Below are positions 23,179 to 40,321 of a DNA stretch of 64,000 nucleotides, in pieces. Source of the DNA: Candidatus Woesearchaeota archaeon (lineage in GTDB: Archaea > Nanobdellota > Nanobdellia > Woesearchaeales > ARS49); the NCBI GenBank assembly GCA_019322895.1, contig JAHWHZ010000001.1, positions 459,528-523,527 of the forward strand, given 5' to 3'. The translations under genes were made by a program, and so were the position numbers. Numbering within the stretch: the stretch's first letter is position 1; each line of letters begins with the position of its first letter. Under the pieces are notes generated by a model. That model did not search any database. It was given only the letters and a program-made list of their open reading frames with translations, and had not been told where the DNA came from.

Positions 23179-24321
23179 ATGAGAGTATATTTAGACAACG
23201 CAGCAACTACAAAAACAGCGCCTGAAGTAGTTGAGGCCATGCATCCTTATTTTACTGAAAAGTATGGCAATGCATCCAGCATACACTCTTTTGGAGAAGA
23301 AGCTAAAGAAGCATTGGAAAATGCAAGAGAACAGCTGGCTAAATATATTAATGCAGAGCCAGAAGAGATTATTTTCACAAGCGGCGGGACTGAAAGCGAT
23401 AACCTTGCTATTAAAGGAACTGCTTATGCCTTGAAAGACAAAGGAAAGCATATCATAACAAGCAAGTTTGAGCATCATGCTGTTTTAGAGACCTGTCAGG
23501 CCTTGGAAAAAGAAGGTTTTGAAGTTACATATATAGGCATAAGCAAGGACGGCTTTGTTGATATAGCTGCATTGAAGAATGCAATAAGGGATGACACAAT
23601 CCTTGCTACTATAATGCATGCTAATAATGAGATTGGAACAATACAAGACATTGAAAAAATCGGGGAAATCTGCAGGGAAAAAGGAATTATCTTTCACACA
23701 GATGCTGTCCAGTCATTAGGAAAAATTCCGATAGACGTAAAAAATATGCGCCTGGATCTTGCTTCTTTTTCAGCACACAAGCTTCATGGCCCAAAAGGCA
23801 TTGGTGCATTGTATGTCAGGAAAAAAGACAAGATAACAAAATTATTTTACGGCGGCGCACAGGAGTTCAATCTTCGCCCAGGGACAGAGAATGTTTCAGG
23901 TGCAGTTGGTTTTGCAAAAGCAATAGAGCTTATGTCTGAGCAGGATATCAAGAATATGACTGAATTTCAGGATTATTTGATTGATGCATTGCTGCAGATT
24001 CCAGAGGCCTGTCTTAATGGCTCTAGAGAAAAAAGGCTTTGCAATACTGTTAATGTTTCTTTTTCACATATTGAGGGGGAATCTGTATTGCTTGGCTTGG
24101 ATGACAAAGGTATTGCAGTCTCAACAGGTTCTGCATGCACTTCACAGAAGTTGGAGCCAAGCCATGTCTTGATTGCAATGGGCATTAAGCCAGAAGATGC
24201 GCACGGCAGCATAAGATTTTCATTGAGCAAATACACAACAAAAGAAGAATTAGATTATGCAATAAATGCAGTAAAAGCAGTTGTAGAAAACTTAAGAAAG
24301 ATTTCACCTTTAGGCAAATAA
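23179..24321 (+). CDS. iscS: cysteine desulfurase (IscS/NifS)
   Basis: 380 aa with the PLP-binding SAHKLHGPKG and active-site SSGSACTS loop. Confidence 0.85.
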   Translation: MRVYLDNAATTKTAPEVVEAMHPYFTEKYGNASSIHSFGEEAKEALENAREQLAKYINAEPEEIIFTSGGTESDNLAIKGTAYALKDKGKHIITSKFEHHAVLETCQALEKEGFEVTYIGISKDGFVDIAALKNAIRDDTILATIMHANNEIGTIQDIEKIGEICREKGIIFHTDAVQSLGKIPIDVKNMRLDLASFSAHKLHGPKGIGALYVRKKDKITKLFYGGAQEFNLRPGTENVSGAVGFAKAIELMSEQDIKNMTEFQDYLIDALLQIPEACLNGSREKRLCNTVNVSFSHIEGESVLLGLDDKGIAVSTGSACTSQKLEPSHVLIAMGIKPEDAHGSIRFSLSKYTTKEELDYAINAVKAVVENLRKISPLGK

Positions 24322-24322
24322 A

Positions 24323-24694
24323 ATGTATTCAGAAAAAGTGCTTAAGCATTTCAAGAAACCGCACAATGTAGGCAAGATTGAAGATGCTGACGGAATTGGA
24401 ACAGTAGGCAACAGGGCCTGCGGCGATGTCATGAAATTATACATCAAGGTAGAGGATAACAAGATTGTTGACATAAAGTTTGAGACAATGGGGTGTGCAG
24501 CTGCCATAAGTTCTTCTGATATGTTATGTGAAATGGCTAAGGGAAAAACTATCGAGGAGGCCTTAAAAATTACTAAAGACGATTTAATTAAGGAGTTAGA
24601 AGGATTGCCGCCAGTAAAAATTCATTGTTCCGTACTGGCTGTCGACGCATTACATGAAGCGATTAAAGAATACAAACAAAAACAAAAGAAATAA
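24323..24694 (+). CDS. iscU: Fe-S cluster scaffold IscU/NifU N-terminal domain
   Basis: 123 aa with three conserved Cys (GNRACGD, MGCAAAIS, KIHCSVLA). Confidence 0.85.
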   Translation: MYSEKVLKHFKKPHNVGKIEDADGIGTVGNRACGDVMKLYIKVEDNKIVDIKFETMGCAAAISSSDMLCEMAKGKTIEEALKITKDDLIKELEGLPPVKIHCSVLAVDALHEAIKEYKQKQKK

Positions 24695-24840: not shown

Positions 24841-24915
24841 CTTTTCTCGAAAAAGTTGAGCTTTCCTATCAACTGCGGAAATCTCAACTACAAGATTGGG
24901 ATTTCGAGGTGTACT

Positions 24916-25785
24916 ATGGCTTTTAAAAAAGGAAACGTTCCTTGGAATAAAAATAAAAAAGGAGTTATGCCGATTCCTTGGAATAAAGGATTATCTAAAA
25001 ATAATTCTAAAATTGCTGAAATTTGTCAAAGAATCAGTCAAACTAAAAAATCACAATATCTGCATGGCGAACTTGTTGTTTGGAATAAAGGAAAAAATAA
25101 ATTTATTGATAAAAGATTAGCACAGCAAGGAAAAAAATCTTCTGAAACTAAGAAAAGAAGATACACAGCAGGTGACTTAGTTATTTGGAATAAAGGTAAG
25201 AAAAATGTACAAACTCCTTGGAATAAAGGCAGAGAAGGACTGCAAAAAGCATGGAATAAAGGATTAAATAAAGAAAATAATTCATTTATTCGTAAACAAG
25301 CAGAGTCTTTGAAAGGCAGCTGGGATGTAAAGTATGGAATACAGCATGCAGAGAAAAGAAAAGCAAAAGTTCGAGCGGCTCGTTTAAAGCAAACCTTTAA
25401 TAAAATCAGTAGCATAGAACTGACGACTAAAAAAATTCTTTTAAGTATAGGATGCAAAGAAAAACAAAGTATCAATAACTGCAAATCTTGGCTAGATTTT
25501 GCCTGTCAGCAATCTATTGAAGGAATTTGTGTGCCTGATTTCGTTTTTCCTCTGCAAAGTTTAATTATAAATTGTGATGGTGATTATTGGCATGGAAATC
25601 CTAAGCTCTTTAATGAATTAGATTACATTCAGAAAAAAACAAGAAAAAGAGATATTAGACAAAATGAACTACTTAAAGAAAAAGGCTGGCTTGTTCTGCG
25701 CTTCTGGGAACACTTCATTAAAGAAAACGAAGAAAGATACGCGAACGATTTAGCGAATATATTAGAGATACAATTAACTTTATAA
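24916..25785 (+). CDS. homing-endonuclease-like protein: six NUMOD3-type WNKG DNA-binding repeats fused to a Vsr/DUF559-type endonuclease domain
   Basis: Repeats VPWNKNKKG, IPWNKGLSK, VVWNKGKNK, VIWNKGKKN, TPWNKGREG, KAWNKGLNK. The C-terminus VPDFVFPLQSLIINCDGDYWHGN...RKRDIRQNELLKEKGWLVLRFWEHF matches the Vsr catalytic core. ATG 24916 has GAGGTG 4 nt upstream, and the tracker's TTG at 24856 is an alternative start. Confidence 0.6.
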   Translation: MAFKKGNVPWNKNKKGVMPIPWNKGLSKNNSKIAEICQRISQTKKSQYLHGELVVWNKGKNKFIDKRLAQQGKKSSETKKRRYTAGDLVIWNKGKKNVQTPWNKGREGLQKAWNKGLNKENNSFIRKQAESLKGSWDVKYGIQHAEKRKAKVRAARLKQTFNKISSIELTTKKILLSIGCKEKQSINNCKSWLDFACQQSIEGICVPDFVFPLQSLIINCDGDYWHGNPKLFNELDYIQKKTRKRDIRQNELLKEKGWLVLRFWEHFIKENEERYANDLANILEIQLTL

Positions 25786-25808: not shown

Positions 25809-26654
25809 ATGATCATAATTCGCTTTGCTGAAATCGGCCTTAAAGGCAGGAACCGGGCTTTCTTTGAAAAAACTCTTGTGAATAACATAAAATCTTGCCT
25901 TGATGCTCATAAAATAATATACAAGAACATCAAAAGGCCCATGGGCAGGGTCTTGATTGCCACAGATGATTCTTGCAAATGCTTGGAATGTGTTTTTGGT
26001 ATTGCCTCTTTTTCAGATGCAGTCAATGCAGGCTTTAACATGGAGTCTGTAAAAAAAGAGGCTTTGAAATTAGCAAAAGATCTTACTCCGAAAAAATCTT
26101 TTAGGATAACCTGCCAAAGACTGGACAAGAGATTTCCCATGACTTCTCAGGAATTTGATGTAGAGCTTGGCGCTTTTATCCAGGAAAAGACAAATGCAAA
26201 AGTCAAGATGAAAGGGTTTGATTTGAATATCCGGGCAGAGATCATTGATAATTTTGTTTACTTGTTCACTGAGAAGATCAAAGGCCTTGGAGGCCTGCCA
26301 GTTGGTGTTGAAGGAAAAGTTATTGTTCTTCTTGAGAATGAAGCTTCCTTGCTTGCAGGATTGTTCATGATGAAGCGCGGATGCCATATAATTCCAGCAG
26401 CTTTTAAAGAGATGGATATCTCTTTGCTGCAGAAATATGCTTTTGGCACAAGGGTTGAACTGAAGATAATCAAAAATATTTCAGATATTGATGCATTGGC
26501 TAAAGAGCATAAGGCAAAAGCAGTGGCTGTCAGTGATTTATTGGACACGATGAAAGAATATGATATGAATACCAAGGTGTTCAGGCCTTTGATTGCTTAT
26601 GAACCTAAAGAGATTGCAGAGGAATTAAATGGTTTCAGACAAAGAGTTTGTTAA
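25809..26654 (+). CDS. ThiI-like THUMP-domain protein with degenerate PP-loop (predicted catalytically inactive tRNA-binding module)
   Basis: N-terminal ferredoxin-like plus THUMP. The region GKVIVLLENEASLLAGLFMMKRGCHII aligns to the ThiI [25 protein letters not shown], but SGGxDS is replaced by ENEAS. The protein is about 100 aa shorter than ThiI and has no rhodanese domain. Confidence 0.55.
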   Translation: MIIIRFAEIGLKGRNRAFFEKTLVNNIKSCLDAHKIIYKNIKRPMGRVLIATDDSCKCLECVFGIASFSDAVNAGFNMESVKKEALKLAKDLTPKKSFRITCQRLDKRFPMTSQEFDVELGAFIQEKTNAKVKMKGFDLNIRAEIIDNFVYLFTEKIKGLGGLPVGVEGKVIVLLENEASLLAGLFMMKRGCHIIPAAFKEMDISLLQKYAFGTRVELKIIKNISDIDALAKEHKAKAVAVSDLLDTMKEYDMNTKVFRPLIAYEPKEIAEELNGFRQRVC

Positions 26655-27495
26655 GAAGTTTGAGCAGAAAGTAAAAAATACAATAAAGAAATTCAAGCTG
26701 ATTAGTCCTAAGGACAAGATTCTTGTCGCGGTTTCAGGAGGAAAAGACAGCACAACTGTTTTGTATCTGTTAAATAAGTTTGGCTATGATATTGAGGCAG
26801 TGACAGTTGATGTTGGTGTGGGTGATTATTCTGAAGTTAATCTGAAAAATCTGAAGGCTTTTTGTGCAGAGAAAAATATCAAGCTGCATAAGCTGTCTTT
26901 TATAAAAAATTTTAATTGTTCTATTGATCAGATACAGCCCTTGCTGAAGAAAAAAGGAATTAATCTAAGATCCTGTGCTGTTTGCGGTGTTCTCAGAAGA
27001 TATTTAATCAACAAGTTTGTGAGAAAGGCCAAGGCAACAAAAGTTGCTACAGGCCACAATGCTTCTGATGAGGCTCAGGTTTACTTGATGAATGTTTTAA
27101 AGAACAAGCAGGAATTGAATTCACGATTAGGCCCTATGCCTGGCTTAATAAGAAGCAAATTGTTTGTTCCAAGAATAAAGCCATTGTATCTTATCACAGA
27201 AGATGATGTTGAGCGCTATTCAAAGATAATGAATTTTCCTGTCAAGTATGGAAGATGCCCCTGCGCTCATGATGCTTATAGGAATTATATCAGGAATTTC
27301 TTGAATGATTACAAGAAGACAAATCCAGATGTTCACTTGAATATTGTCAGGAATTTCTTGAAAGAATTGCCTGGATTAAAAAAAAGATTTGCAACAAAAA
27401 AAAAGCCGAATGTTTGTGCAAAGTGCGGAGAGCCTGCCAAAGAAAAGATATGCAGGACCTGCCAGATATTATCTCATCTTAAGAAATGCCTTTAA
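26629..27495 (+). CDS. TtuA/TtcA/NcsA-family PP-loop tRNA thiolase with C-terminal Zn ribbon
   Basis: PP-loop SGGKDS, Fe-S ligand candidates CAVCG and CPCAHD, C-terminal CAKCGEPAKEKICRTC. Overlaps the upstream THUMP gene by 26 nt. Confidence 0.65.
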   Translation: MVSDKEFVKKFEQKVKNTIKKFKLISPKDKILVAVSGGKDSTTVLYLLNKFGYDIEAVTVDVGVGDYSEVNLKNLKAFCAEKNIKLHKLSFIKNFNCSIDQIQPLLKKKGINLRSCAVCGVLRRYLINKFVRKAKATKVATGHNASDEAQVYLMNVLKNKQELNSRLGPMPGLIRSKLFVPRIKPLYLITEDDVERYSKIMNFPVKYGRCPCAHDAYRNYIRNFLNDYKKTNPDVHLNIVRNFLKELPGLKKRFATKKKPNVCAKCGEPAKEKICRTCQILSHLKKCL

Positions 27496-28158
27496 TTCTT
27501 TTAGTTCTTTTTTGCCTAATTGTCTCTTTTTTCCTGGGCGCAATCCTTTTAGTTTTATGTTGGCCACCTGAGTTCTTTTAAGTTCCTGGACCTTGTATCC
27601 TAGCTTTGCAAAGATTCTCTTGACTATGTGCTTTTTTCCTTCGTGTATTATTATCTCAATCCCTTTTGGCAGTGACCTGTATCTTTTTATCTTTACTTTC
27701 TTTCCGTCAAGGACTATTTTTTGCAATTTGCTGAAATCCTTGAATTTTTTGTCTAATACTGCGTGGTATGTCTTGAATGTCATATATCTTGGATGCATTA
27801 TCCTGTTTGCCAGTTCGCCGTCATTTGTAAGAATCAATAATCCTTCTGTATTCTCATCAAGCCTTCCTACTGGAAATACTTTTTCTTTTATCTTTATGAG
27901 CTCCATTATTGTTTTCTTGCCTTTTTGCTTGAGAGAAGTCACATATCCTTTTGGCTTGTTGAAGGCAAAATACACTTTTTCCTCTGGCTGGATTATTTCT
28001 CCATCTAGTGTAATTACATCCAGCACAGCATCTGCTTTATCTCCTAGTTTTATCTTCTTTCCATTTACCTTGACCCTGCCCTGCGCTATGAGTTCCTCGC
28101 TTTTTCTTCTTGAGGCAATCCCTGCAGCAGCAAGTATCTTTTGCACTCTTTCTTCCAT
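27469..28158 (-). CDS. RsuA/RluB-family pseudouridine synthase with S4 domain
   Basis: N-terminal S4 (RVQKILAAAGIASRRKSEELIAQGRVKVNG) and catalytic VGRLDENTEGLLILTNDGELANRIMHP. Confidence 0.75.
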   Translation of the reverse strand: MEERVQKILAAAGIASRRKSEELIAQGRVKVNGKKIKLGDKADAVLDVITLDGEIIQPEEKVYFAFNKPKGYVTSLKQKGKKTIMELIKIKEKVFPVGRLDENTEGLLILTNDGELANRIMHPRYMTFKTYHAVLDKKFKDFSKLQKIVLDGKKVKIKRYRSLPKGIEIIIHEGKKHIVKRIFAKLGYKVQELKRTQVANIKLKGLRPGKKRQLGKKELKELKAFLKMR

Positions 28159-28210: not shown

Positions 28211-28807
28211 ATGATTGATGTAGTGTTTCCAGATAAAAATGAGAAGGAATTTGTTGAGATAGCTGAAAAGCTGGGATATTCAGGATTGATATTTGTTTAT
28301 GAGCATAAATTTGAATCTGGTGCTGAAAAAATCAAGACAAAGCTAAAATTGCACGATGCCTTGTCAGTTCAGCACAAAAAAATCATTTCTGCAAAAAACA
28401 AGTCAAAGTTTGTATTTGCAAAAGCAATAGAAGATAATCGTTTTGCTTTTGAAAAAGCACGACCTGCAATGGTTTTTGCATTAGAAGAAGCACAGAAAAG
28501 GGATTTCATGCATCAGAGAGGCTCTGGACTCAATCATATATTTTGCAGGCTTGCAAAAGAAAACAATGTCAAGATAGGTTTTTCCTTTAATTCAATCCTT
28601 AATTCAAGAGGGATGTCAAGAGCGCAGATAATCGGCAGGATGCAGCAGAACATCATGCTCTGCAGGAAATACAAGTGTAAGATGGTTATTGCTTCTTTTG
28701 CAAAAGATCCTTATGAGATGCGCTCTCCAAAAGATTTGATTTCTTTTTTTACAGAGATAGGAATGCACCAGAAAGAAGCAAAAGACTCATTAAATATGTT
28801 TAAATGA
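28211..28807 (+). CDS. RNase P protein component Rpp30/Rnp3-like (TIM-barrel)
   Basis: 198 aa. The conserved C-terminal ASFAKDPYEMRSPKDLISF resembles the Rpp30 signature. Call is tentative. Confidence 0.45.
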   Translation: MIDVVFPDKNEKEFVEIAEKLGYSGLIFVYEHKFESGAEKIKTKLKLHDALSVQHKKIISAKNKSKFVFAKAIEDNRFAFEKARPAMVFALEEAQKRDFMHQRGSGLNHIFCRLAKENNVKIGFSFNSILNSRGMSRAQIIGRMQQNIMLCRKYKCKMVIASFAKDPYEMRSPKDLISFFTEIGMHQKEAKDSLNMFK

Positions 28808-29635: not shown

Positions 29636-32600
29636 ATGGGAAGCAAACATACATTACTAGTTATTTTAGTGTTAATTCTGTTTTCTAGCACTGTTTATGC
29701 TGTTGATTTTGAGCTTGCATTTGGGTATCCAATGTATAATCTCTCTTATAGCAAACAGTTTTGGGGTGTTGCTGACACAACAGGCCCTTATTTTATCTTG
29801 GAAAATACAGGAATCTGGACTATTCATCCTACTGAAATCGAAGTGGAGGGTTTATTAGAGGTAGACCCGCCTTTTATTGCTGTAGAAGCCAGAGGGCACT
29901 ATACAGACAGATATGCTTGTGAAGGAAACAGGGGCGGCGGAGGATGTAATTCCCATTTGAAAGTTTTATTAGAATATAATCAAAAAGAGGTATGGGACAA
30001 TGTCCGGCGCGCAGACAATCCTCCTAACTGGTATGAAGATCCTATCAATGTTATTTCAGATTATGTAGAATATAAGAGAGTTTCTGGAAGAAAGGAGTGT
30101 ACTAATAGAGATCCTGATGTGAATTGCTGGCCTGACCAGGTAATTCAATTTTATTATGCTCCAATCATTGTAAAGGATTTTAACAATGTATTTGTTGAAG
30201 ATGAGACAAAATCTCTTGGAACTGTTGGAGAGATAATGGGAGAGGATTTTCCAGATGGTGTTAATGCAACTGTTTACACTGGAATTTTTTCAGAGAATAA
30301 ACAGGTTCTTTTCTGGATTGCTGATTATCCTGATTCTTCTGCAGATTATCCTGCGGAGCCTGAAAAAAATACTGCAGACAAGACAGATTATATACTTGCA
30401 TGCGCGGATTTTGACCAAAATAATAAATGCGATCACTTACAGTCTACTGTCCAGACCTGCTGGGATGAAGATGGTGCCTGGTTTGGCAGGAATTATCATG
30501 AAGGCCAGTTATATGGTGGAGGATTTGTGGAAGGATGTTGTGTTGATAATGACCCTCAAAAAATTGCGCGCCTGAATGCAGCAGGAATTGAAGCTTTTCA
30601 CTGCGGATATTATGATCACAGGCTCAAGGCATTGTGCGGTTATGATGAGCAGGGAAATCATCACTGGGCTTCCTTAGAGCAGGCAGGCAGTATTGCAGAT
30701 TTAAGAGGCTGTCCTGGTTTTAATATTGTATCAAATGGAAGAAGATTTTATGGATGTCGCGCCGGAAATTTAGGGTTTGCTACATTTGATACAAATGTTT
30801 CTGTTCAAAGGACATGGTATGACTGGGAAGGCAAGTGGCATGCAAAAGCTGAAAATGAAGACTTGTTTGAAGGCGCATTATATACTAATGCCAATGATTG
30901 GCTTAGAGATTATTTTGATGACAATGGAAAAACTGATTTATGTAGATTAACTGAGAGCATGTGCAATGCGGAGAATGCATATGAAAGCGCGTATAAGTGC
31001 GACTTTACTGATGATCCTAATACCGAAAGATATCAGGTTAATAGTGATGAAGCAACTGTTTATTGGGACTTATCTACAGATGACTGGCCTGATTTGTTTT
31101 GTCCATATAGGATAAGCATATATCCTCTGGAACACCAAACGAAGAGTATCTACAGTGCTTCTGGCACACACACTTATCTTTGTGATTCTACCACTGGAAA
31201 CTTGTTTGAATGTACAGGAGACCTGCCTTCTTTTACAAATCCTTATGAAAATCCTGGTGCAATTGCTGAGACAGGCAGGACAACTGTTGAGCTGGTTGGT
31301 GCAGGCGGCTGTCCTCCAGGAATATTGTCTTACTGGACTTTTGATGATACTGTGCAGGATTCTAAAGGAGATTTCAATGGATTGCTTTCTGGCGCAACTT
31401 ATGCAGAAGGCATTGTTAATAATGCCCTATTGTTTGATGGCAATGACAAGGTGACTGTTTCAGGAAATCTAACAACCCCTGCAAGTAATTTTACGATTGA
31501 GTCATGGATTTATCCTGAGCAGGTTGATGAAGGCACTTATTCAATATTAGAAAAGCCTGGCTCTTACAAGCTTGAGATAGTTGATAGAAGACTTAAGGCA
31601 GGAGTCAATATTGATGGAACCTGGGAAAACTTTGGACATGCATTAGTAAGCAAGAATGACTGGGCTCACATCGCTTTGATTTTTAATGGCAACACTGCGA
31701 GACTTTTCAAGAATGGCGACCCTGTCGGTCATGCTGACAAGACAGGAAGCATAACAAAAACAATCAATCCTTTGGTTATTGGCCAGAATTTCATAGGCAA
31801 GATTGATGAAGTCGCTCTTTATGATGAATCGCTTTCCTATACTCTCTTTAAGGCGCATAAGGATGCTGAAAGAAACTATTGCAATCTTTCCACCGGATTT
31901 ACACAAATAGAATATTGTGCATCAGATGGCTGGTGGACGTATGATTTAGATACAAAAGATGAAAGCTCTTGTGAAAAATCTGGATTCAAGTGGACAGGAC
32001 ATTTGTGCTGCTCAGAAGACAATGATGAAAATGAATTTTACAATGATTGGGATTCTCCTGCACTGCCTTTTGATTATAGCAGGAAATCTGCAAATGTAGA
32101 TTTATTGCCAGATTCAGATAATCCGACATTTATCACATTAAAACCTAGAAAATCAAGAATTACTATTTACGGTCCTGCAAGGTTTGAGATGCGCGTGTAT
32201 TCTTCTGAGAAATTCGGAACAACATATGATAGATGTGAAGAGATTGAAGATAAAACACGCATCATCGAAATAAAATCAGGAGAATCAAGAACATTCAGGG
32301 CAGAACAAGGGCCTGCAGAAGGAGGAGACAATTGCATTTACAGGGAGATAGAGCTTGAGTCAAAGCCATTTGAGGCTCTTGGCGGATGCTGGAACAAGAC
32401 TTTTGTGCCGATTGGGCATTTTGCAGAGCCGCACGTCATTAATTATCACGGCAAGTTTTACAGCTGCGGCATACCTGCATTAGATTTGATTGATACGCGT
32501 AATGGCAGCACGCTTGTTAAGTCTGTCAGTCCTACATGCAGTCACATAATGCTTCATGCAAGAGGGCCGTTACTGCACGCTGTCTGCAATCCTGGAAAGG

Positions 32601-32782
32601 ACTGGCAGTTCACAAACAATTCTGATGCAACAATGCAAAAAAGTGTTGCATGGGATATTGCAGGAACAAATGCAACTGAAATAGGGTGTTGCGGTCCTGA
32701 TGAGTGCTGGAATGGTTTTAATTGCGTTAAAATCGGCAGGTTCCAGGAAATAGATTCAGTCTCATATTTTTGCGGGGAATAA
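29636..32782 (+). CDS. large secreted Cys-rich surface protein with concanavalin-A-like/LamG domain
   Basis: 1048 aa with a signal peptide. The LamG_3-like segment is LSYWTFDDT...NGLLSGATY...LFDG...DWAHIALIFNGNTARLFKNGDPVG...KIDEVALYD. More than 50 Cys. Confidence 0.65.
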   Translation: MGSKHTLLVILVLILFSSTVYAVDFELAFGYPMYNLSYSKQFWGVADTTGPYFILENTGIWTIHPTEIEVEGLLEVDPPFIAVEARGHYTDRYACEGNRGGGGCNSHLKVLLEYNQKEVWDNVRRADNPPNWYEDPINVISDYVEYKRVSGRKECTNRDPDVNCWPDQVIQFYYAPIIVKDFNNVFVEDETKSLGTVGEIMGEDFPDGVNATVYTGIFSENKQVLFWIADYPDSSADYPAEPEKNTADKTDYILACADFDQNNKCDHLQSTVQTCWDEDGAWFGRNYHEGQLYGGGFVEGCCVDNDPQKIARLNAAGIEAFHCGYYDHRLKALCGYDEQGNHHWASLEQAGSIADLRGCPGFNIVSNGRRFYGCRAGNLGFATFDTNVSVQRTWYDWEGKWHAKAENEDLFEGALYTNANDWLRDYFDDNGKTDLCRLTESMCNAENAYESAYKCDFTDDPNTERYQVNSDEATVYWDLSTDDWPDLFCPYRISIYPLEHQTKSIYSASGTHTYLCDSTTGNLFECTGDLPSFTNPYENPGAIAETGRTTVELVGAGGCPPGILSYWTFDDTVQDSKGDFNGLLSGATYAEGIVNNALLFDGNDKVTVSGNLTTPASNFTIESWIYPEQVDEGTYSILEKPGSYKLEIVDRRLKAGVNIDGTWENFGHALVSKNDWAHIALIFNGNTARLFKNGDPVGHADKTGSITKTINPLVIGQNFIGKIDEVALYDESLSYTLFKAHKDAERNYCNLSTGFTQIEYCASDGWWTYDLDTKDESSCEKSGFKWTGHLCCSEDNDENEFYNDWDSPALPFDYSRKSANVDLLPDSDNPTFITLKPRKSRITIYGPARFEMRVYSSEKFGTTYDRCEEIEDKTRIIEIKSGESRTFRAEQGPAEGGDNCIYREIELESKPFEALGGCWNKTFVPIGHFAEPHVINYHGKFYSCGIPALDLIDTRNGSTLVKSVSPTCSHIMLHARGPLLHAVCNPGKDWQFTNNSDATMQKSVAWDIAGTNATEIGCCGPDECWNGFNCVKIGRFQEIDSVSYFCGE

Positions 32783-32797
32783 AAAAGAGGTGATTAG

Positions 32798-33922
32798 TTG
32801 AAAAAACCATTGATTTGGTTATGTATAATCATTTTGCTAGTTTTTGCTGTTTTTGCAGCAGACTGGTATGGGCCTCTTAGCTTAAAGCAAAATTGGGACA
32901 GGACAGAATCTGGCGTGTGTCCGAACATAAAGCAGTGTCTTGTGAGTGCAAGCCCGCAGGCAAAAGCCGAATATAATGACCAGCCAGGAAAATATTTTAC
33001 AGACCCTCCTGGCCCCAAATGCATTGCAGACAAGCAGCATATTCTTGATTATTACTGCGAAGAAGGCAGCTGGACAACAAGAACAAAACTTATTGCCTTG
33101 ACTTTGATGGATTTTGCAAGCACGCAGTCAAACAAGTTTGCCTTGTTCTGCGGAAATTACAAGGACGCTCTTAATCATTACCAGTATCTTGTGGGTTCTA
33201 ACACAGATACAAAATTAGTTGAAGACTTTCTGAAAGATTACAGATGCCCGCAATACAATACAACGACAAAAGAAGCATGCGTGAACAACATCTGTGTCTT
33301 GAAATACCAGGATGGAGTTGCAATAGGCACTAGCTTGAACACAAAAATAAATGATGACGAGCATTCGTTCCTGCTTGCATTGAATCATTCAAGTGATGCC
33401 TGCGACAATATAAATTCAGGCGAAAATTTTCAAAGATGCACAGACTGGAACAAAAGAGGAAGAGCATTTTATAACCCCGGCATAAATTCATTTATTTACT
33501 TGTCTACAGATGATACTCTTCCTTCTGCAAAATATTCTGCAGCATATAATGCATTCATCAAGAATAACCTGGAGTCAATAGAAGATTATGCAGCTAATAT
33601 CCAGGATTCAAATCTTAGTTTTGTCAAGAATACAAGATTATTCAATAATTTTTATTATTCCCAGCAAGGAAGCGGAAAAATAATTTTTGCATTTTTAGAA
33701 GAGGGTCAGGAACTTTTTGATTATGATTATGTCGGTGCAAGATACAAGGGTATTGACTTAGGTAATAATCCTTGCAGTGATGTGTTTGAGCAGTATGATG
33801 CCTGGTCATTTTGCGAAGAGACAAGCGGAGACATAAAGATAATCGCAAAGCAGACCCCTGACAAAAAAAGCCCGCTGGTTGAAGCATGGGCAGATTTGTC
33901 AGGAAAATTAAGGCCAAAATGA
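32798..33922 (+). CDS. secreted Cys-rich protein
   Basis: 374 aa. The TTG start at 32798 is preceded by AGAGGTGA at 5-nt spacing. Signal peptide MKKPLIWLCIIILLVFAVFA. Confidence 0.55.
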   Translation: MKKPLIWLCIIILLVFAVFAADWYGPLSLKQNWDRTESGVCPNIKQCLVSASPQAKAEYNDQPGKYFTDPPGPKCIADKQHILDYYCEEGSWTTRTKLIALTLMDFASTQSNKFALFCGNYKDALNHYQYLVGSNTDTKLVEDFLKDYRCPQYNTTTKEACVNNICVLKYQDGVAIGTSLNTKINDDEHSFLLALNHSSDACDNINSGENFQRCTDWNKRGRAFYNPGINSFIYLSTDDTLPSAKYSAAYNAFIKNNLESIEDYAANIQDSNLSFVKNTRLFNNFYYSQQGSGKIIFAFLEEGQELFDYDYVGARYKGIDLGNNPCSDVFEQYDAWSFCEETSGDIKIIAKQTPDKKSPLVEAWADLSGKLRPK

Positions 33923-35196
33923 GAAACGCACAGATAACATTGTTTTTGATTATTGGAATCGTTATTTTGCTGGGGGCTGGATTGTTGATTTACATGGTAT
34001 CAATAACACCTGAAAAAAAAGGAGAAGAAACAGTGGTTGGGCAGACTTTAAGGCAGCAGGCAGTGCAGCCTGTCAAGGATTACATAACTACTTGTCTTGA
34101 TATTGTTTCTTCAGATGCCCTTGAATTAGTTGGCAAGCAGGGCGGAAGATTGTATCAAGAGCAGGGAAGCATTATTCCTAATCCTTCTGTAGATAAGCTT
34201 GGAATTATTTTCATGGATTATGATGACTCGAAGCTATCGTATTCGATAGTTCCTCCAAAAGGCAATGTTGGCGCCTTGTTTTTTTCTGATGTTCCAGAAT
34301 ATCCTTGGCCCAGCTTCCCATATACAGCCAATGGAAACACCTCAGATCTTGGTTACTTTGGATTATCAAGGCTGCCGGCATTGTACAAGAATTTCAGCAC
34401 AGACTCTATACAACAGCAATTAGAGACATACATCTCAAACAATATCGCAAAATGCACTTTGTGGGATAATAAGTTCCCTGGCTTTAAGATTACAACAGGA
34501 ACACCTATGACAACAATGATTATTGCAGAGAATCTTACACACTTGCGGCAGGAAGAATATATTTCATTTGTGCTTGACTGGCCTGTTACAATAACAGAAG
34601 AAAGCAGTGGTGCCAGGATTACTTTAGATAGGTTCACGGTCAATTATCCTGTCGCATTTGGCAGGATGTATTATACAATCAAGAGCATAGTAGAAGCTGA
34701 AATATCTAACATGAGTTATGAGCCGATTACAACAGATGCTTATTTTATCACAATAAACAATAATGCTTACAACAAGGATGACATAATTGTTTACCAGGAC
34801 AAGAAATACAGTCTCAAGGGGGTTCCTTATGAATTCAGGATTGCAAGAAAGAACCGGGCTCCTGCACTTCATTTGATTGATCAGAAAGAGATAGACAAGT
34901 TTGCATATTGCGTGGATATTGTGAAGTTCTCTTTGCAGGGAAACAAGTTGTATGCAAGTCCTGACCTGGAAGACGGCGATCCTTTTCCATTAAACAGTAC
35001 AGCAATTGATCCAGACAATGATGTGATTTCCTTTAAGCTCAAGCCAACTACGCCAAAAGTGGATTCATATGCAGTTGCTTTGTACAAGGATAATCCTGCA
35101 AAAGGAGGATTGCTTTTCAAGGTCTATGCAGATGACGGCGAGCTTGAAGATTACCAGCAGATAAGGATAATTCCTAAAGGATGTGCAGAAGATTGA
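33919..35196 (+). CDS. membrane-anchored protein with class III (prepilin-like) signal-peptide-type N-terminus
   Basis: The start is set at ATG 33919 (MRNAQITLFLIIGIVILLGAGLL), which overlaps the upstream stop as ATGA. The tracker's start is 33886. Confidence 0.5.
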   Translation: MRNAQITLFLIIGIVILLGAGLLIYMVSITPEKKGEETVVGQTLRQQAVQPVKDYITTCLDIVSSDALELVGKQGGRLYQEQGSIIPNPSVDKLGIIFMDYDDSKLSYSIVPPKGNVGALFFSDVPEYPWPSFPYTANGNTSDLGYFGLSRLPALYKNFSTDSIQQQLETYISNNIAKCTLWDNKFPGFKITTGTPMTTMIIAENLTHLRQEEYISFVLDWPVTITEESSGARITLDRFTVNYPVAFGRMYYTIKSIVEAEISNMSYEPITTDAYFITINNNAYNKDDIIVYQDKKYSLKGVPYEFRIARKNRAPALHLIDQKEIDKFAYCVDIVKFSLQGNKLYASPDLEDGDPFPLNSTAIDPDNDVISFKLKPTTPKVDSYAVALYKDNPAKGGLLFKVYADDGELEDYQQIRIIPKGCAED

Positions 35197-38100
35197 ATAA
35201 AAAAATATTATTGATATCCATTATGATGATTTTAACAGCATTAGCTGCAGCTGTTTTTGCGCAGCAGTTTGGCTGCTGCTGTGATCCTATTGTCAGGACA
35301 GGCTCTATAATGAACCAGTCAGCATGCGTCTCCCCTTTTGTATTTGTTCCAATTCCTGCTTTTGGCTTTACTGGCTGCCCTGCTTTGTGCAATGCAACAA
35401 ACATAACTGCACCGCCTACAGTCCCGCCTAGCTGCACTGCTCCTGGATACAAGCCGCCTGTCTCAAATCTTTTTGTCTTGCCTGTTAAAGGCGAAAAAGC
35501 AGTCCAGATTGACTTTAATCTTCCCTGCCCTGTGAATCATGTCAAGATTTACCGCTGCCAAGGCTCTGGATGCACTAACTTTACCTTGTTGACAACCCTT
35601 GGCTCTTCTAATTCATACAAGGATGAGTCTGCTGACTTGCTATGGGACGAGGATTATAATTACAAGATTATTGCAAACTATAAAGTGTCTGGTGATTCAA
35701 CTCCAGCAACAGCAGAAGTAAATATAGGAGACTTGGAGTGCTGGTATCAGACAACAAATGACTTGTTTTGCATTGCTCCGTATTATTATGACCAGTTCAA
35801 GAGCTATCTTAAAAAATACGGCTACAAGATAGCTTCTGCAGATGATTTTAAGGCGGATTTTGATTCAGAAAGAGATTCTGTATTCAATGACTTTTATAGA
35901 AAATCCTGGCGCTGCAATGACATGAATCAATTGTCAAAGCCTTCTCCACAGGTTTCCTGCACAGAGGATGAAATATGCATCTCAGATGGAAGCACTGCAA
36001 AGTGTGTTGAGAGTGTTTCCTGCGATCTTGGAGGAGATTTTGGCCTGCAGTCTGATGTAGATGACTGCGAGGGAGAATATGGAGAAATCAAGTATTGCTT
36101 CTTGGACAAGTCAACTACTGTTGTAAACAAGTGCTATCCTTGCAATCCTCAGATGACTTGTTATGATTATCATTCAGAAGATGCCTGTCTTAGAGATAAT
36201 TGTGGCGCAGGCCAGTGTGCATGGACAGATGTGTTTCCTGATTTAGGAATAGGTGTTTGTTATGACGCGCGTTTTGATGCGTGCAGCTTGTGCCAGGCAA
36301 GGCCAAGCAGCAGTGCTTCAAACAAGGAAGGCTTTAATGAGGTGTTTGATGCTTGCACTGAGGAAAAAGCAAGAGCACTTTCTACAGATGAAATACCTTG
36401 CTTCTTCAATAAAAATACGCAGGAAGGCCAGAGCTGCGATTATGTTGATTGTACAGCTTATACGCAGACGCAGTGCAGTTCTCCTGCTGGAGGAATCCAG
36501 TTAAATTCAGACAATTCAATAAAAGTTGGCAGCAATGATGCCTGCCAGATAAATGTGTGCCAGTATTCCGTTGAGACAGGATGCGTGAAGAATGCAAATG
36601 GAGCATCAGGTGTTGGCTGGTCTGACTGCCTTGATGCAGAAGATCCTGAATTATGTGAAAAAGATTATTTTCCTCCTGAAACAATTGCTGTCTTGACTGG
36701 AGAAGCTCCTGGAAAGCACGATTATATTGACTTGATAATAAATGACATGACAAGCAGGACAGGCAAGACAAAAGAGATGCAGGGCGAGCCAGGATACAAG
36801 ACATACTTGTGCATTGTTTCAGCAAATAATTCCTGCAATATTGCTTCAGCATTTCCTATCACCACAACAAAATCAAGATTGATAATAAATGATTTGAACC
36901 TGCAGGACGGCCAGGATGTTGTTGGCAAATTCAGCGAGGGAAACAACAAGGTCAAGTTTTATTCTGTTGATCCTAACAAGAATCTGGAAGTCATAAAGGA
37001 AGTTATTGTTTTTGCATGTGACAAGTGTTCAGGCCCAAAAGCAATTAACATAACTGTTACAGGAGCAAATGAGGTTAATGGAAAGTTTTACACAAGGGTT
37101 TTGCAGCCTTCAATAAAGATTACTTTTGATGAGCCTGCAGAATTGATTGCCTCCAGCCTGGACAAGGCAGGTGTTTTGCAATCGCTAGCATCTTCTCCTA
37201 CTTCTGGATTGAATTACCAGTATACTTTCATGCCAAACAACCAGCTGTCAGAAGGAGTCTATAGGTTCTCAGTCAATGCAAAAGATGATAATGGTGTTTC
37301 AATGGATAATCCTGTTGTCTTTGACTTGTACATAGACACAACACCTCCGACTGTTGTGATTACTCCAGAGGATGGTGTAGAGTTTGAGACAAAAGATGTT
37401 GCAGTTGCCTTGAATTTCAGCGAGCCTGTCTTTTTCAACAAGACAACACTGGATGAGGTTGTCTTCATAAATGAGTTTGCAAAAGAATCATTTCCGATAT
37501 ATCTTTCAAGAGAGCTCAGCTCAGAAAACAGCAAGTATTTTTCAGGCATTGTAACAAATCTTAAGGCAGGATTAAAAATAGTCAATGTTGATGTCACTGA
37601 TTATGCAGGCAATGTCTTGAGAACAAAATCTTATTTCTCAGTTTTTGCAGGCCCTCCAAAAATCAGGATGGTACATCCGAGCTGGGGAATCTCGTCAGTA
37701 TTCTCTTTCAATGTAACAGTTGAATCGTCTACAAAAGCAAAGTGCAAGTATATCTATGATGTTCCTGCACCTCCGCCTGCAACACAGTTTGATAGTTTGA
37801 GTGATTTTGATTCAAGCGACGGCATATATCATGTAATCAATCAAGTCACGATTCCTTACGGCGATACTTCAACACATTCCCTGCACGTATACTGCAAAGC
37901 AGGAGAATTCAATATCTCAAGGCAGTCATTTAACTTGTTTATTGATTCAATAGCTCCAAAGATAGTTTCTGCTTACGCAAATCCAGACCCTATTGTTGAG
38001 CCAGTGGAAACAGGTGCAGAGATTTACTCAACAAGGCTGCAGGTGCAGACAGATGAAGAAGGATTCTGCAAGTACAGTGCAGACAAGCAGGACTTCAAGG

Positions 38101-39851: not shown

Positions 39852-40321
39852 AAAAAGCGCAGATGATAGGCCAGATATTTATTTTTGTAGTTGCTGCAAT
39901 AATTTTTATCCTTATCCTTATGTATGGGTATAAGGCAATCTCTAATTTTTTGCAGCGTTCTGAGCAGGTTGCATTGATTGATTTCAAGTCTGATTTAGAA
40001 TCTTCTGTAGAGGTCATCAAGAGGGATTATGGCAGTGTGAGAAAGCTTGAATTAAAGCTGCCAAAAAGATATACAGAGCTCTGCATAATTGATATAAACA
40101 ATTGCGAGCCGCTAAAGAAACAGAGGCCTTTGATGTATTCGACGTGTATTGCAGGCAGTGAGAATGTCATACTTGTTCCTAAGCAGGAAACTCCTATCTT
40201 TCTTCCAGACATAACTGTTTTAGGCGGCTACACTTGTGTTGATGTTGCCCACGGCAATGTTGTACTGGGCCTTAAGGGTCTTGGCAAGTCAACACAGATT
40301 TCAGGGTGGCCTGTTCCATAA
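39848..40321 (+). CDS. pilin-like protein with archaeal class III signal peptide
   Basis: MKKAQMIGQIFIFVVAAIIFILILM... The ATG overlaps the upstream stop (ATGA). Confidence 0.55.
   Translation: MKKAQMIGQIFIFVVAAIIFILILMYGYKAISNFLQRSEQVALIDFKSDLESSVEVIKRDYGSVRKLELKLPKRYTELCIIDINNCEPLKKQRPLMYSTCIAGSENVILVPKQETPIFLPDITVLGGYTCVDVAHGNVVLGLKGLGKSTQISGWPVP

What the first reader, a model, noticed from the sequence alone, without database searches (positions are those of the whole stretch)
25809..27495. Split tRNA-thiolation system: ThiI-like THUMP protein with destroyed PP-loop coupled to a TtuA/NcsA-type PP-loop enzyme
The first ORF aligns to ThiI through the THUMP domain and into the PP-loop, but the ATP-binding SGGxDS is ENEAS and the adenylation domain is truncated, so the protein cannot adenylate. 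It overlaps by 26 nt an intact SGGKDS/Cys-cluster/Zn-ribbon thiolase of the TtuA/TtcA type that itself lacks any tRNA-binding THUMP. Together, and directly downstream of iscS-iscU, they look like a two-subunit enzyme in which recognition and catalysis are on separate polypeptides. I am not aware of this arrangement having been described for s4U or s2-type tRNA thiolation.
Basis: partly seen in the sequence, partly recalled or inferred. Interest (0 to 1): 0.6.

Follow-up and report, generated by a model that had tools for sequence, protein, structure and literature searches.

The report
Inactive ThiI-like gene beside tRNA thiolase
In this Woesearchaeota genome, a conserved but catalytically dead copy of the tRNA 4-thiouridine enzyme ThiI overlaps an intact TtuA/NcsA-type tRNA thiolase gene; the pairing is real and undescribed, but whether the two proteins work as one enzyme is unproven, and related archaea encode a better-fitting catalytic partner.

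Summary
ORF1 (25809-26654, 281 aa) has ThiI's ferredoxin-like and THUMP domains. Its PP-loop domain is stripped: ENEAS replaces SGGxDS, and the CxxC segment, the TGENLGQVASQT motif and the catalytic-Cys tail are gone. ORF2 (26629-27495, 288 aa) overlaps it by 26 nt. ORF2 is an intact TtuA/NcsA-family PP-loop/[4Fe-4S] thiolase that lacks only the N-terminal zinc finger.

ORF1 is not a pseudogene. It belongs to a large archaeal family (349 clusters at 50% identity with E<=1e-30) whose solved member is the orphan P. horikoshii protein PH1313 (1VBK).

The two-subunit reading is only partly supported. A TtuA-like gene lies within 5 kb in 28/59 dead-ThiI loci against 0/21 canonical ThiI loci. However, RNase P p30, MCM, TBP and iscS are conserved neighbours too. 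Four of six TtuA-like genes checked have no THUMP neighbour. Co-evolution does not exceed the synteny baseline.

I also found a stand-alone, THUMP-less catalytic "mini-ThiI" family in related DPANN archaea. In Undinarchaeota it overlaps the dead-ThiI gene by 4 nt.

Best reading: ORF1 is a non-catalytic tRNA-docking subunit that acts in trans, and ORF2 is an autonomous thiolase sharing an iscS-iscU operon. Which protein is ORF1's catalytic partner in this genome is unresolved.

The parts
23179..24321 (+). Cysteine desulfurase (NifS/IscS type), first gene of the sulfur/Fe-S supply pair upstream
   Evidence: Pfam Aminotran_5 E 2e-99. TIGR03402 NifS scores 543 bits, above its cut-off of 530.75.
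24323..24694 (+). Fe-S scaffold NifU/IscU
   Evidence: Pfam NifU_N E 2e-48. TIGR03419 scores 188.9 bits, above its cut-off. In relatives L001 and L170 this gene overlaps the ThiI-like gene by 4 nt.
25809..26654 (+). ORF1: PH1313-type, catalytically dead ThiI paralogue (281 aa)
   Evidence: Best PDB sequence match is 1VBK PH1313, E 1e-42. AF2 model pLDDT 90.2. Top Foldseek hit is 1VBK with TMq 0.85, followed by ThiI structures 2C5S and 4KR7. The family holds 349 clusters (50% identity) at E<=1e-30.
25809..26015 (+). N-terminal ferredoxin-like domain (residues 1-69), carrying the invariant E8-x-x-L11-K12-G13-x-N15 loop
   Evidence: Pfam ThiI_fer 1-69. Invariant columns. The loop corresponds to the TmThiI Arg10-Lys19 RNA-binding 'bottom' loop, which reaches the partner subunit's active site (PMC4041423; mapping from the alignment).
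26037..26270 (+). THUMP domain (residues 77-154), the 3'-CCA/acceptor-stem binding module
   Evidence: Pfam THUMP E 6e-12. Invariant F98, R104 and K107 lie in or just after the stretch that aligns to the CCA-binding strand of TmThiI (Thr102-Lys109).
26304..26651 (+). Degenerate PPase-like domain (residues 166-281). ENEAS at 26334-26348 replaces the PP-loop; the MKRGC and RPL motifs are retained
   Evidence: The AF2 model shows a compact alternating beta/alpha core here.
26629..26654 (+). 26-nt overlap of ORF1 and ORF2, with an AGAGGA SD-like element at about 26617-26622
   Evidence: The same -26 overlap occurs in L001-L003. Other overlaps (-16, -25, -37, -44, -4) occur in diverged lineages.
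26629..27495 (+). ORF2: TtuA/NcsA-family PP-loop [4Fe-4S] tRNA thiolase without the N-terminal zinc finger (288 aa)
   Evidence: PDB matches: PhTtuA E 1.6e-40, TtTtuA 2.4e-34, MmNcsA 2e-30. NCBIfam: TtuA-Pyrococcus 187 bits, NcsA 138 bits, both below cut-off. TIGR00269 C-terminal domain scores 80 bits, above its cut-off of 62.75.
26734..26751 (+). Intact PP-loop SGGKDS of ORF2
26974..27264 (+). Cluster cysteines C116, C119 (26974-26985) and C210 (27256-27258) of ORF2
   Evidence: They align to the CxxC + C cysteines of PhTtuA and TtTtuA in the HMMER alignments. Positions.
27415..27462 (+). C-terminal zinc ribbon CAKC...CRTC of ORF2

Best explanation
The locus is the distal part of an iscS-iscU-linked tRNA-thiolation gene cluster that encodes two different things.

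ORF1 is a PH1313-type pseudo-enzyme. It keeps ThiI's tRNA-recognition module (ferredoxin-like plus THUMP domains, which clamp the 3'-CCA end and acceptor stem). It also keeps a stripped PPase-like core that can no longer bind ATP, hold an Fe-S cluster or carry sulfur.

Canonical ThiI already works in trans: the THUMP module of one subunit presents U8 to the PPase of the other, and the dimer forms through the PPase domains. I therefore infer that ORF1 is the non-catalytic tRNA-docking subunit of a two-polypeptide sulfurtransferase.

The catalytic partner that fits best on domain logic is the stand-alone, THUMP-less ThiI-type PPase ('mini-ThiI': SGGIDS plus CxxC plus CC). It is found in related DPANN archaea. 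Together the two would make s4U8, in analogy to Ctu1/Ctu2.

ORF2 is a self-sufficient TtuA/NcsA-type [4Fe-4S] 2-thiouridine synthetase. It is co-transcribed because it needs the same Fe-S and sulfur supply.

Shown: the domain content, the loss of catalytic motifs, family conservation, gene linkage, and the existence and operonic coupling of mini-ThiI in relatives.

Inferred: tRNA binding by ORF1, heterodimer formation, the identity of the partner in this genome, and the tRNA position modified by ORF2.

My split for ORF1's partner in this genome is mini-ThiI about 0.3, ORF2 about 0.25, none or other about 0.45. The 0.45 confidence below refers to the overall picture: a dead docking subunit plus an autonomous TtuA-like enzyme.
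For: - ORF1 has lost the catalytic motifs but kept NFLD and THUMP.
- The family is large, of uniform length and free of fusions. Its invariant residues fall at the RNA-contacting positions of TmThiI, including the NFLD loop that reaches into the partner's active site.
- The fold matches PH1313, which crystallised as a dimer.
- ThiI works in trans, with a PPase-PPase dimer interface (PMC4041423).
- The mini-ThiI family matches Pfam ThiI over 4-196/197 at 225 bits and has no NFLD or THUMP. At least 120 clusters occur in Woese-/Nanoarchaeota.
- In Undinarchaeota L060 and L079 the mini-ThiI gene overlaps the dead-ThiI gene by 4 nt, with an AAGGAGGT SD. In L030 and L065 it lies 2-3 kb away.
- A canonical full-length ThiI occupies the same syntenic slot in L032.
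- ORF2 has every catalytic feature of TtuA/NcsA.
- TtuA-like genes stand without a THUMP neighbour in 4 of 6 look-ups. In nine loci they pair with a ThiF-type E1, as expected for a TtuA/NcsA system.
- Precedents exist for dead-paralogue or THUMP-adaptor subunits: Ctu1/Ctu2 (PMC10067955) and Tan1/THUMPD1 with Kre33/NAT10 (PMC9957541).
Against: - No mini-ThiI lies in the 64-kb window.
- None of the 120 best mini-ThiI clusters is recorded on the window's 705,286-bp contig, or on the 395-kb contig of a close relative. This is weak negative evidence, because the list is truncated.
- Mini-ThiI lies within 5 kb of the dead-ThiI gene in only 4/59 loci. None of four mini-ThiI contexts had a THUMP gene within 6-8 kb.
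- In this clade ORF2 is the gene translationally coupled to ORF1. Loss of ORF2's N-terminal zinc finger correlates with tight overlap (9/10 versus 10/23, p=0.02), which is what a functional hand-over to the THUMP protein would predict.
- PH1313-type proteins also occur in Thermococci and Thermoplasmata. The published reviews report THUMP-containing ThiI/TtuI in Pyrococcus and Thermoplasma, so a docking role there is not obviously needed.
Confidence: 0.45

Rival explanations
1. ORF1 and ORF2 form a hetero-oligomeric enzyme. ORF1's THUMP module docks the tRNA 3' end, and ORF2's PP-loop/[4Fe-4S] site adenylates and thiolates a uridine. The THUMP subunit replaces the tRNA-binding role of ORF2's lost N-terminal zinc finger.
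For: - The 26-nt overlap with an internal SD is conserved in all close relatives.
- Independent overlaps of -16, -25, -37, -44 and -4 nt occur in lineages only 36-45% identical in ORF1.
- A TtuA-like gene lies within 5 kb in 28/59 dead-ThiI loci against 0/21 canonical loci, p=2.7e-5.
- Zinc-finger loss is enriched among tightly overlapping pairs. In a rough NJ tree, zinc-finger-containing forms nest among finger-less ones, which suggests several losses.
- No mini-ThiI was seen on the large contigs of this clade.
- A THUMP module guiding a catalytic domain to U54/55 has a precedent in Pus10, and THUMP adaptors have one in Tan1.
Against: - Most canonical-ThiI control loci come from other phyla. 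The DPANN-only control is 0/6, p=0.03.
- RNase P p30 (30 loci), MCM, TBP and iscS are linked about as often, so much of the signal is shared synteny.
- There is no excess co-evolution (r 0.756 versus 0.739).
- Zinc-finger-less TtuA-like genes in L167, L168 and L171 keep the syntenic slot without any ThiI-like gene or remnant. L169 lacks one too.
- 31/59 dead-ThiI loci have no TtuA-like gene within 5 kb.
- No THUMP-TtuA fusion appears among the best 120-150 hits of either family.
- TtuA and NcsA are active alone in vitro according to the literature.
- TtuA-type chemistry targets C2, whereas the ThiI ruler presents U8 for C4 thiolation.
Confidence: 0.25
2. ORF1 acts without a catalytic partner. 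It would be a homodimeric tRNA-binding protein, for example a tRNA chaperone, a 3'-end sensor or regulator, or a sulfur-relay adaptor for IscS. ORF2 is an unrelated, autonomous thiolase. Their adjacency is inherited synteny.
For: - PH1313 crystallised as a homodimer and has no confirmed activity.
- The family also occurs in Thermococci and Thermoplasmata, groups for which the literature reports complete ThiI/TtuI.
- Both candidate partners are usually unlinked to it.
- iscU directly overlaps the ThiI-like gene in L001 and L170. This parallels the nifZ-thiI pairing of B. subtilis.
Against: - The NFLD loop that inserts into the partner's active site in ThiI is invariant in the family, although the protein has no active site of its own.
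- THUMP-less catalytic ThiI proteins in the same phyla would be left without a recognition module.
- The Undinarchaeota operon links the two families directly.
Confidence: 0.2
3. ORF1 is a decaying pseudogene of ThiI.
For: All catalytic motifs are lost and the domain is truncated.
Against: - The reading frame is intact. More than 120 homologous clusters have the same 245-300 aa length, down to 35% identity.
- 349 clusters at 50% identity reach E<=1e-30.
- There are 31 invariant columns among 20 diverse members.
- The AF2 model is confident, pLDDT 90.
- A solved homologue exists (1VBK).
Confidence: 0.02

Closest known systems
PH1313 of Pyrococcus horikoshii (PDB 1VBK), the 'ThiI-like protein'
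   Same: Same three-part architecture: NFLD, THUMP and a shortened PPase-like domain. The PP-loop position is likewise degenerate (HDELS versus ENEAS). Sequence E 1e-42 over residues 2-258. Foldseek TMq 0.85.
   Different: Only 31% identical. PH1313 is 307 aa and comes from a hyperthermophilic euryarchaeon. Its gene neighbourhood was not examined here. Its function is unconfirmed, so membership does not supply a mechanism.
ThiI/TtuI tRNA U8 4-sulfurtransferase, including the archaeal [4Fe-4S] class (M. maripaludis, P. furiosus)
   Same: NFLD and THUMP are homologous, and the RNA-contacting residues are conserved. The C-terminal domain derives from the ThiI PPase. The trans-acting dimer logic of ThiI is the basis of the proposed mechanism.
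   Different: There is no SGGxDS, no CxxC+C, no catalytic Cys loop and no TGENLGQVASQT motif. About 85 residues of the PPase domain are missing. TIGR00342 scores 146 bits against a cut-off of 264.5. ORF1 is not a ThiI enzyme.
TtuA (PH0300, T. thermophilus TtuA) and NcsA (M. maripaludis): [4Fe-4S] tRNA 2-thiouridine synthetases
   Same: ORF2 shares the PP-loop, the three cluster cysteines, the C-terminal zinc finger and the TIGR00269 C-terminal domain. It aligns to nearly the whole of PhTtuA (residues 23-290).
   Different: ORF2 lacks the N-terminal zinc finger. It scores far below both equivalog cut-offs (187 versus 450 for TtuA; 138 versus 500 for NcsA). Its target position (U34, U54 or other) and its sulfur donor are unknown. 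Relatives sit next to a ThiF-type E1, which this window lacks.
Ctu1/Ctu2 (Ncs6/Ncs2), the eukaryotic U34 thiolase
   Same: A catalytic PP-loop/[4Fe-4S] subunit pairs with a diverged paralogue that has lost the cluster cysteines. The paralogue is thought to orient the tRNA. The dimer mimics the ancestral homodimer (PMC10067955). This is the closest conceptual precedent for a dead ThiI plus a catalytic PPase.
   Different: It belongs to a different subfamily (TtuA/NcsA type, not ThiI type). Ctu2 has no THUMP domain. No interaction has been shown for the proteins studied here.
Tan1/THUMPD1 with Kre33/NAT10
   Same: An NFLD-THUMP protein without catalytic activity serves as a tRNA adaptor for a separately encoded modification enzyme (PMC9957541).
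   Different: Tan1 has no PPase-like third domain, and its partner is an acetyltransferase. ORF1 derives from ThiI (Pfam ThiI_fer, TIGR00342).

Membership tests
ThiI/TtuI (tRNA U8 4-sulfurtransferase) | N-terminal ferredoxin-like domain plus THUMP domain | tested here: met
   Pfam ThiI_fer 1-69 and THUMP 77-154. The model superposes on 2C5S and 4KR7.
ThiI/TtuI (tRNA U8 4-sulfurtransferase) | PP-loop SGGxDS ATP-binding motif | tested here: not met
   ENEAS at residues 176-180. All 20 aligned family members lack the motif.
ThiI/TtuI (tRNA U8 4-sulfurtransferase) | Complete PPase domain with the catalytic Cys (Cys344 equivalent), or CxxC+C for the [4Fe-4S] class | tested here: not met
   The CxxC segment and the C-terminal ~70 residues are deleted. 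Pfam ThiI scores 16.5 bits against a 20.5 cut-off; TIGR00342 scores 146 against 264.5.
PH1313-type ThiI-like proteins (no curated family; defined here by 1VBK) | NFLD + THUMP + shortened PPase-like domain with a degenerate PP-loop, about 250-310 aa | tested here: met
   phmmer E 1e-42 to 1VBK over residues 2-258. Foldseek rank 1, TMq 0.85. At least 145 of the 150 best representative clusters are 205-300 aa and match the whole of ORF1.
TtuA/NcsA/Ctu1 (TIGR00269-type PP-loop thiolases), for ORF2 | PP-loop SGGKDS, three cysteines for a [4Fe-4S] cluster, C-terminal zinc finger | tested here: met
   Alignments to 3VRH/5MKO, 5GHA and 6SCY. Motif positions. TIGR00269 scores 80.3 bits against a cut-off of 62.75.
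TtuA/NcsA/Ctu1 (TIGR00269-type PP-loop thiolases), for ORF2 | N-terminal zinc finger | tested here: not met
   The match begins at PhTtuA residue 23 and at model position 23. There is no Cys before the PP-loop. Some orthologues in related loci keep the finger.
TtuA (U54) or NcsA (U34) equivalogs, for ORF2 | Score above the NCBIfam equivalog cut-off, which assigns the target position | tested here: not met
   NF049949 TtuA scores 187 against 450. NF047749 NcsA scores 138 against 500. TtcA scores 98 against 272.
Two-subunit thiolase (catalytic plus dead paralogue, Ctu1/Ctu2-like), ORF1+ORF2 | Physical complex of the two proteins | not testable with these tools
No natural fusion was found.
Two-subunit thiolase (catalytic plus dead paralogue, Ctu1/Ctu2-like), ORF1+ORF2 | Consistent co-occurrence or co-evolution of the two genes | tested here: inconclusive
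   28/59 versus 0/21 linkage. Against this, 4 of 6 reverse look-ups lack a THUMP gene, and the mirror-tree correlation shows no excess. Genome-wide profiles were not obtainable.
Split ThiI (dead THUMP subunit plus stand-alone ThiI PPase) | A THUMP-less catalytic ThiI PPase encoded in the same genome | tested here: inconclusive
   Absent from the 64-kb window. Present and operonic in Undinarchaeota L060 and L079, and 2-3 kb away in Woesearchaeota L030 and L065. The rest of this genome could not be read.

The most novel reading that the evidence does not exclude
PH1313-type dead ThiI proteins are a general class of trans-acting tRNA-docking subunits. In most DPANN lineages they would pair with a THUMP-less ThiI PPase to form a split s4U8 synthetase. 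In the clade of this window, the docking subunit would have been captured by a TtuA-type [4Fe-4S] thiolase that shed its own N-terminal zinc finger. The result would be a THUMP-guided TtuA-type enzyme with a possibly new target position. This would also assign a function to the orphan structure 1VBK.
Probability: 0.2. Interest if true: 0.75.

Novelty: new variant of a known kind. Interest (0 to 1): 0.5.

Why it matters
tRNA thiolation enzymes are well studied, yet PH1313 has had a crystal structure since 2005 without a confirmed activity. How archaea with tiny genomes make s4U8 and s2U is also not documented; I found no paper on ThiI in DPANN.

This locus, together with the stand-alone mini-ThiI family found here, suggests that recognition and catalysis in ThiI have been split between two genes in several archaeal phyla. 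That would be a prokaryotic parallel to the eukaryotic Ctu1/Ctu2 and Tan1/NAT10 arrangements.

If the dead subunit serves the TtuA-like enzyme in this clade, it would show that a THUMP ruler can be re-used by a different catalytic family. Both ideas can be tested directly with recombinant proteins.

If neither holds, the locus is simply an Fe-S/tRNA-thiolation operon containing one pseudo-enzyme of unknown role.

Tried and rejected
1. Complex prediction.
2. Search for natural THUMP-TtuA fusions. None appeared in the best 120 hits of ORF1, the best 120 of ORF2, or the best 150 representative clusters.
3. Mirror-tree co-evolution over 21 loci. ThiI-like/TtuA-like r=0.756 against ThiI-like/p30 r=0.739. 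The partial correlations are similar, so there is no usable signal.
4. Metagenome scan with a mini-ThiI profile. It added only unlinked mini-ThiI examples and nothing from the window's lineage.
5. Extending the window's contig through edge genes. One protein was not on record. The other gave about 5 kb of new sequence with nothing relevant.
6. Looking for a mini-ThiI, a ThiF-type E1 or a second PP-loop protein in the window. None was found.
7. A small ORF upstream of mini-ThiI as a possible ubiquitin-like sulfur carrier. It has no C-terminal GG, so the idea was dropped.
8. An NJ tree of the NFLD-THUMP region, to ask whether the dead forms are monophyletic. The tree is star-like, with canonical DPANN ThiIs interspersed, and too poorly resolved to use.
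9. The pseudogene hypothesis. Rejected on family conservation.
Full report
**Source and setting.** The window comes from a Candidatus Woesearchaeota MAG. ORF1 is identical to NCBI protein KY346_02940, recorded on a 705,286-bp contig. Local gene order on the + strand:
- nifS/iscS, 23179-24321
- nifU/iscU, 24323-24694
- a Vsr/DUF559-like ORF, 24856-25785
- ORF1, 25809-26654
- ORF2, 26629-27495

Downstream lie a convergent RsuA-type pseudouridine synthase (27469-28158, - strand) and RNase P p30 (28211-28807).

**Checking the observation.** ORF1 (281 aa) matches Pfam ThiI_fer (residues 1-69) and THUMP (77-154). It matches the ThiI PP-loop family only below threshold, at residues 166-201. TIGR00342 aligns only to model positions 1-205 of 373.

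The PP-loop position reads ENEAS (residues 176-180). I aligned ORF1 with canonical archaeal ThiIs and with stand-alone ThiI PPase proteins. Besides SGGxDS, ORF1 has lost three elements:
- the ~28-residue segment carrying CxxC;
- the TGENLGQVASQT motif;
- the C-terminal ~70 residues with the catalytic cysteine.

ORF2 (288 aa) overlaps ORF1 by 26 nt, with an AGAGGA element upstream of its ATG. It aligns to residues 23-290 of P. horikoshii TtuA (E 1.6e-40). The PP-loop SGGKDS, the three cluster cysteines (C116, C119, C210) and the C-terminal zinc ribbon are all in place. The N-terminal zinc finger is missing.

- a Vsr-like ORF separates iscU from ORF1;
- absence of THUMP is normal for any TtuA-type enzyme;
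- overlapping genes are common in this window.

**ORF1 is a conserved protein, not a wreck.**
- The word-indexed search returned 2,755 hits. The best 120 are all 187-332 aa, mostly 260-290 aa, come from Woese- and Nanoarchaeota, and nearly all lack a Pfam ThiI hit.
- The exhaustive search of 50%-identity representatives found 349 clusters at E<=1e-30. At least 145 of the best 150 are short proteins that match ORF1 end to end.
- Twenty diverse members share 31 invariant columns. Using the HMMER alignment to T. maritima ThiI, several of these map onto residues that contact RNA in the ThiI-RNA crystal structure (PMC4041423).
  - R5, K12 and R14 correspond to Arg10, Lys17 and Lys19 of the NFLD loop.
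  - G46-R47 correspond to the Trp44-Arg46 loop.
  - R99 corresponds to Lys104 on the CCA-binding strand.
- The best solved homologue is PH1313 of P. horikoshii (1VBK, E 1e-42), which itself has HDELS in place of the PP-loop.
- An AF2 model of ORF1 (pLDDT 90.2) superposes best on 1VBK (TMq 0.85), then on ThiI structures.
- The THUMP review by Hori calls PH1313 a 'ThiI-like protein' that lacks conserved ThiI residues and has no confirmed activity (PMC9957541).

**Is the pairing with ORF2 more than chance?** I fetched 80 loci from GTDB species representatives. Of these, 59 encode a dead-PP-loop form and 21 a canonical ThiI.
- A TtuA-like ORF lies within 5 kb in 28/59 dead-form loci and 0/21 canonical loci (p=2.7e-5).
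- It is immediately downstream on the same strand in 13 loci.
- Overlaps are -26 (three loci), -16, -25, -37, -44 and -4 nt. They occur in lineages whose ORF1 homologues are only 36-69% identical to the window's.

Three caveats weaken this.
- Most canonical controls come from other phyla. With DPANN canonical ThiIs only, the contrast is 0/6 (p=0.03).
- The region is a conserved syntenic block. RNase P p30 occurs in 30 loci, iscS in 23, TBP in 18, and MCM and iscU are also frequent.
- Pairwise-distance correlation between the ThiI-like and TtuA-like proteins (r=0.756) is no better than between the ThiI-like protein and p30 (r=0.739).

**The reverse test.** I looked up six TtuA-like proteins, chosen only for long contigs. 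All are zinc-finger-less and 53-56% identical to ORF2.
- One has the THUMP gene overlapping it, in a tight HTH-iscS-iscU-THUMP-TtuA-p30 operon (L170).
- One has the THUMP gene 0.9 kb away (L172).
- Four have no THUMP gene within 4-5 kb (L167, L168, L169, L171).
- L167, L168 and L171 keep the TBP/MCM or iscS-iscU...p30 frame, and L171 shows no remnant of a ThiI-like gene.

In nine other loci the TtuA-like gene keeps its zinc finger and sits next to a ThiF-family E1. That is the usual companion of TtuA/NcsA systems. Each gene is therefore often found in the block without the other.

One feature does favour a functional link. Zinc-finger-less forms make up 9/10 tightly overlapping pairs but only 10/23 of the rest (p=0.02). 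A rough tree suggests more than one loss.

**A third family changes the picture.** Clustering the neighbours revealed proteins of 208-221 aa that are the ThiI PPase domain alone.
- They match Pfam ThiI over 4-196/197 at 225 bits.
- They carry SGGIDS, CxxC and a CC pair, as in the [4Fe-4S] class of TtuI.
- They have no NFLD or THUMP.

In two Undinarchaeota genomes the gene ends in an ATGA overlap with the start of the dead-ThiI gene, preceded by AAGGAGGT. In two Woesearchaeota it lies 2-3 kb upstream. A search with one member returned at least 120 clusters of 190-250 aa from Woese- and Nanoarchaeota.

What this protein lacks is exactly what ORF1 keeps, and the reverse. ThiI is known to act in trans. 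The NFLD/THUMP of one subunit holds the acceptor stem and CCA end, and U8 enters the PPase site of the other subunit. The dimer is built from the PPase domains (PMC4041423). A heterodimer of dead ThiI and mini-ThiI would reproduce one functional half of that dimer. A canonical full-length ThiI occupies the same syntenic slot in Woesearchaeote L032.

The weak points of this idea:
- Mini-ThiI is usually unlinked to the dead-ThiI gene. It lies within 5 kb in 4/59 loci, and none of four mini-ThiI contexts had a THUMP gene within 6-8 kb.
- It is not in the window.
- None of the listed clusters sits on the large contigs of the window's clade. That list is truncated at 120 of 7,855 hits.

**Mechanism, and how sure I am.**

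Shown:
- ORF1 cannot adenylate.
- ORF1 retains the RNA-recognition module.
- ORF2 has all the catalytic features of a [4Fe-4S] TtuA/NcsA enzyme.
- The two genes are probably co-transcribed with iscS-iscU. Relatives have 4-nt overlaps throughout the operon.

Inferred:
- ORF1 binds the tRNA 3' end and presents a uridine to a catalytic PP-loop subunit encoded by another gene.

I rate that general role at about 0.55. For the partner in this genome I put mini-ThiI at about 0.3, ORF2 at about 0.25, and none or unknown at about 0.45. ORF2 is most simply an autonomous 2-thiouridine synthetase. Its target, U34 or U54, is not assignable, because it scores far below both NCBIfam equivalogs.

Precedents for dead-paralogue or adaptor subunits:
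- Ctu1/Ctu2 (PMC10067955)
- Tan1/THUMPD1 with Kre33/NAT10 (PMC9957541)

**Novelty.** I found no paper on this pairing, on THUMP-less ThiI proteins, or on ThiI in DPANN. The library searched covers open-access papers only. The ORF1 family is structurally known but functionally orphan. ORF2 is a zinc-finger-less variant of a known family. The arrangement is best described as a new variant of known tRNA-thiolation systems. It offers a testable hypothesis that would also explain 1VBK.

**Limits.**
- Only 64 kb of the genome could be read.
- Genome-wide co-occurrence could not be computed.
- Complex prediction was not possible.
- The trees are rough NJ trees.
- The locus sample is phylogenetically non-independent.

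Noticed in passing
window 24856-25785 (+): A 309-aa ORF lies between iscU and ORF1. It has six N-terminal 'WNKG' repeats and a C-terminal Vsr/DUF559-type endonuclease domain (Pfam DUF559 E 1e-7; TIGR00632 Vsr 38 bits, below cut-off). Relatives L001 and L170 have no such gene, and there iscU overlaps the ThiI-like gene by 4 nt. It looks like a mobile or homing-endonuclease-like insertion into the operon.
   Followed up: partly
L060 4324-4989, L079 4345-4989, L065 2094-2720 (-), L030 1157-1783 (-): A family of stand-alone ThiI PPase-only proteins ('mini-ThiI'), about 205-220 aa, with SGGIDS + CxxC + CC and no NFLD or THUMP. At least 120 clusters occur in Woese-/Nanoarchaeota. In Undinarchaeota the gene overlaps the dead-ThiI gene by 4 nt. 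Short ThiI-type ORFs (201-245 aa) also turned up in other metagenome contigs, including one from human gut (L095).
   Followed up: partly
L034 9075-10037 (-), L084 6941-8011, L173 4935-5996: ThiF-family E1-like genes sit directly beside the TtuA-like gene in nine Woesearchaeota loci. They also sit directly upstream of mini-ThiI in two of four contexts. This hints that both thiolases use an E1-activated sulfur carrier. No E1 homologue is in the window.
   Followed up: partly
window 26649-26651 (ORF1 Cys281, inside the ORF1/ORF2 overlap): ORF1 ends in F-R-Q-R-V-C. A C-terminal cysteine in an F-[RK]-x-x-[VI]-C motif is kept at or near the C-terminus in 7 of the 20 aligned family members (P0001, P0016, P0027, P0031, P0042, P0048, P0050, which are the seven most similar to ORF1) and is absent from the more distant ones. 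MAFFT places it in the column of the catalytic Cys of canonical ThiI. It could be a remnant of a persulfide or ligand cysteine, or it could simply be constrained by the overlapping ORF2 start.
   Followed up: no
L007 5737-6996, L018, L026 (immediately downstream of the dead-ThiI gene): A MiaB/MtaB-like methylthiotransferase (UPF0004 + radical SAM + TRAM) follows the ThiI-like gene in three loci that lack a TtuA-like neighbour. This is another sulfur-dependent tRNA modification enzyme in the same neighbourhood.
   Followed up: no
L032 4947-6131: One Woesearchaeote has a canonical full-length ThiI (394 aa, STGIDS PP-loop variant, CxxC present) in the same TBP/MCM...p30 slot that the dead ThiI occupies elsewhere. 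Its N-terminal half is 47% identical to ORF1, and its C-terminal half is the canonical ThiI closest to mini-ThiI (159 bits).
   Followed up: partly
window 27469-28158 (-) and 28211-28807 (+): An RsuA-type pseudouridine synthase (S4 + PseudoU_synth_2 domains) converges on ORF2 and overlaps its 3' end by 27 nt. RNase P subunit p30 follows. The p30 gene is a conserved neighbour in 30 of 80 related loci.
   Followed up: no
window 32798-35196 and 39848-41358: Four consecutive-strand ORFs (374, 436, 157 and 350 aa) have no Pfam match at E<=0.001. They flank very large ORFs (29636-32782, 1048 aa; 35181-39851, 1556 aa) that were not analysed.
   Followed up: no
L171 1-840 (-): The MCM gene of one relative carries an intein with a LAGLIDADG endonuclease (Pfam Intein_splicing and LAGLIDADG_3 in the precomputed annotation).
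   Followed up: no
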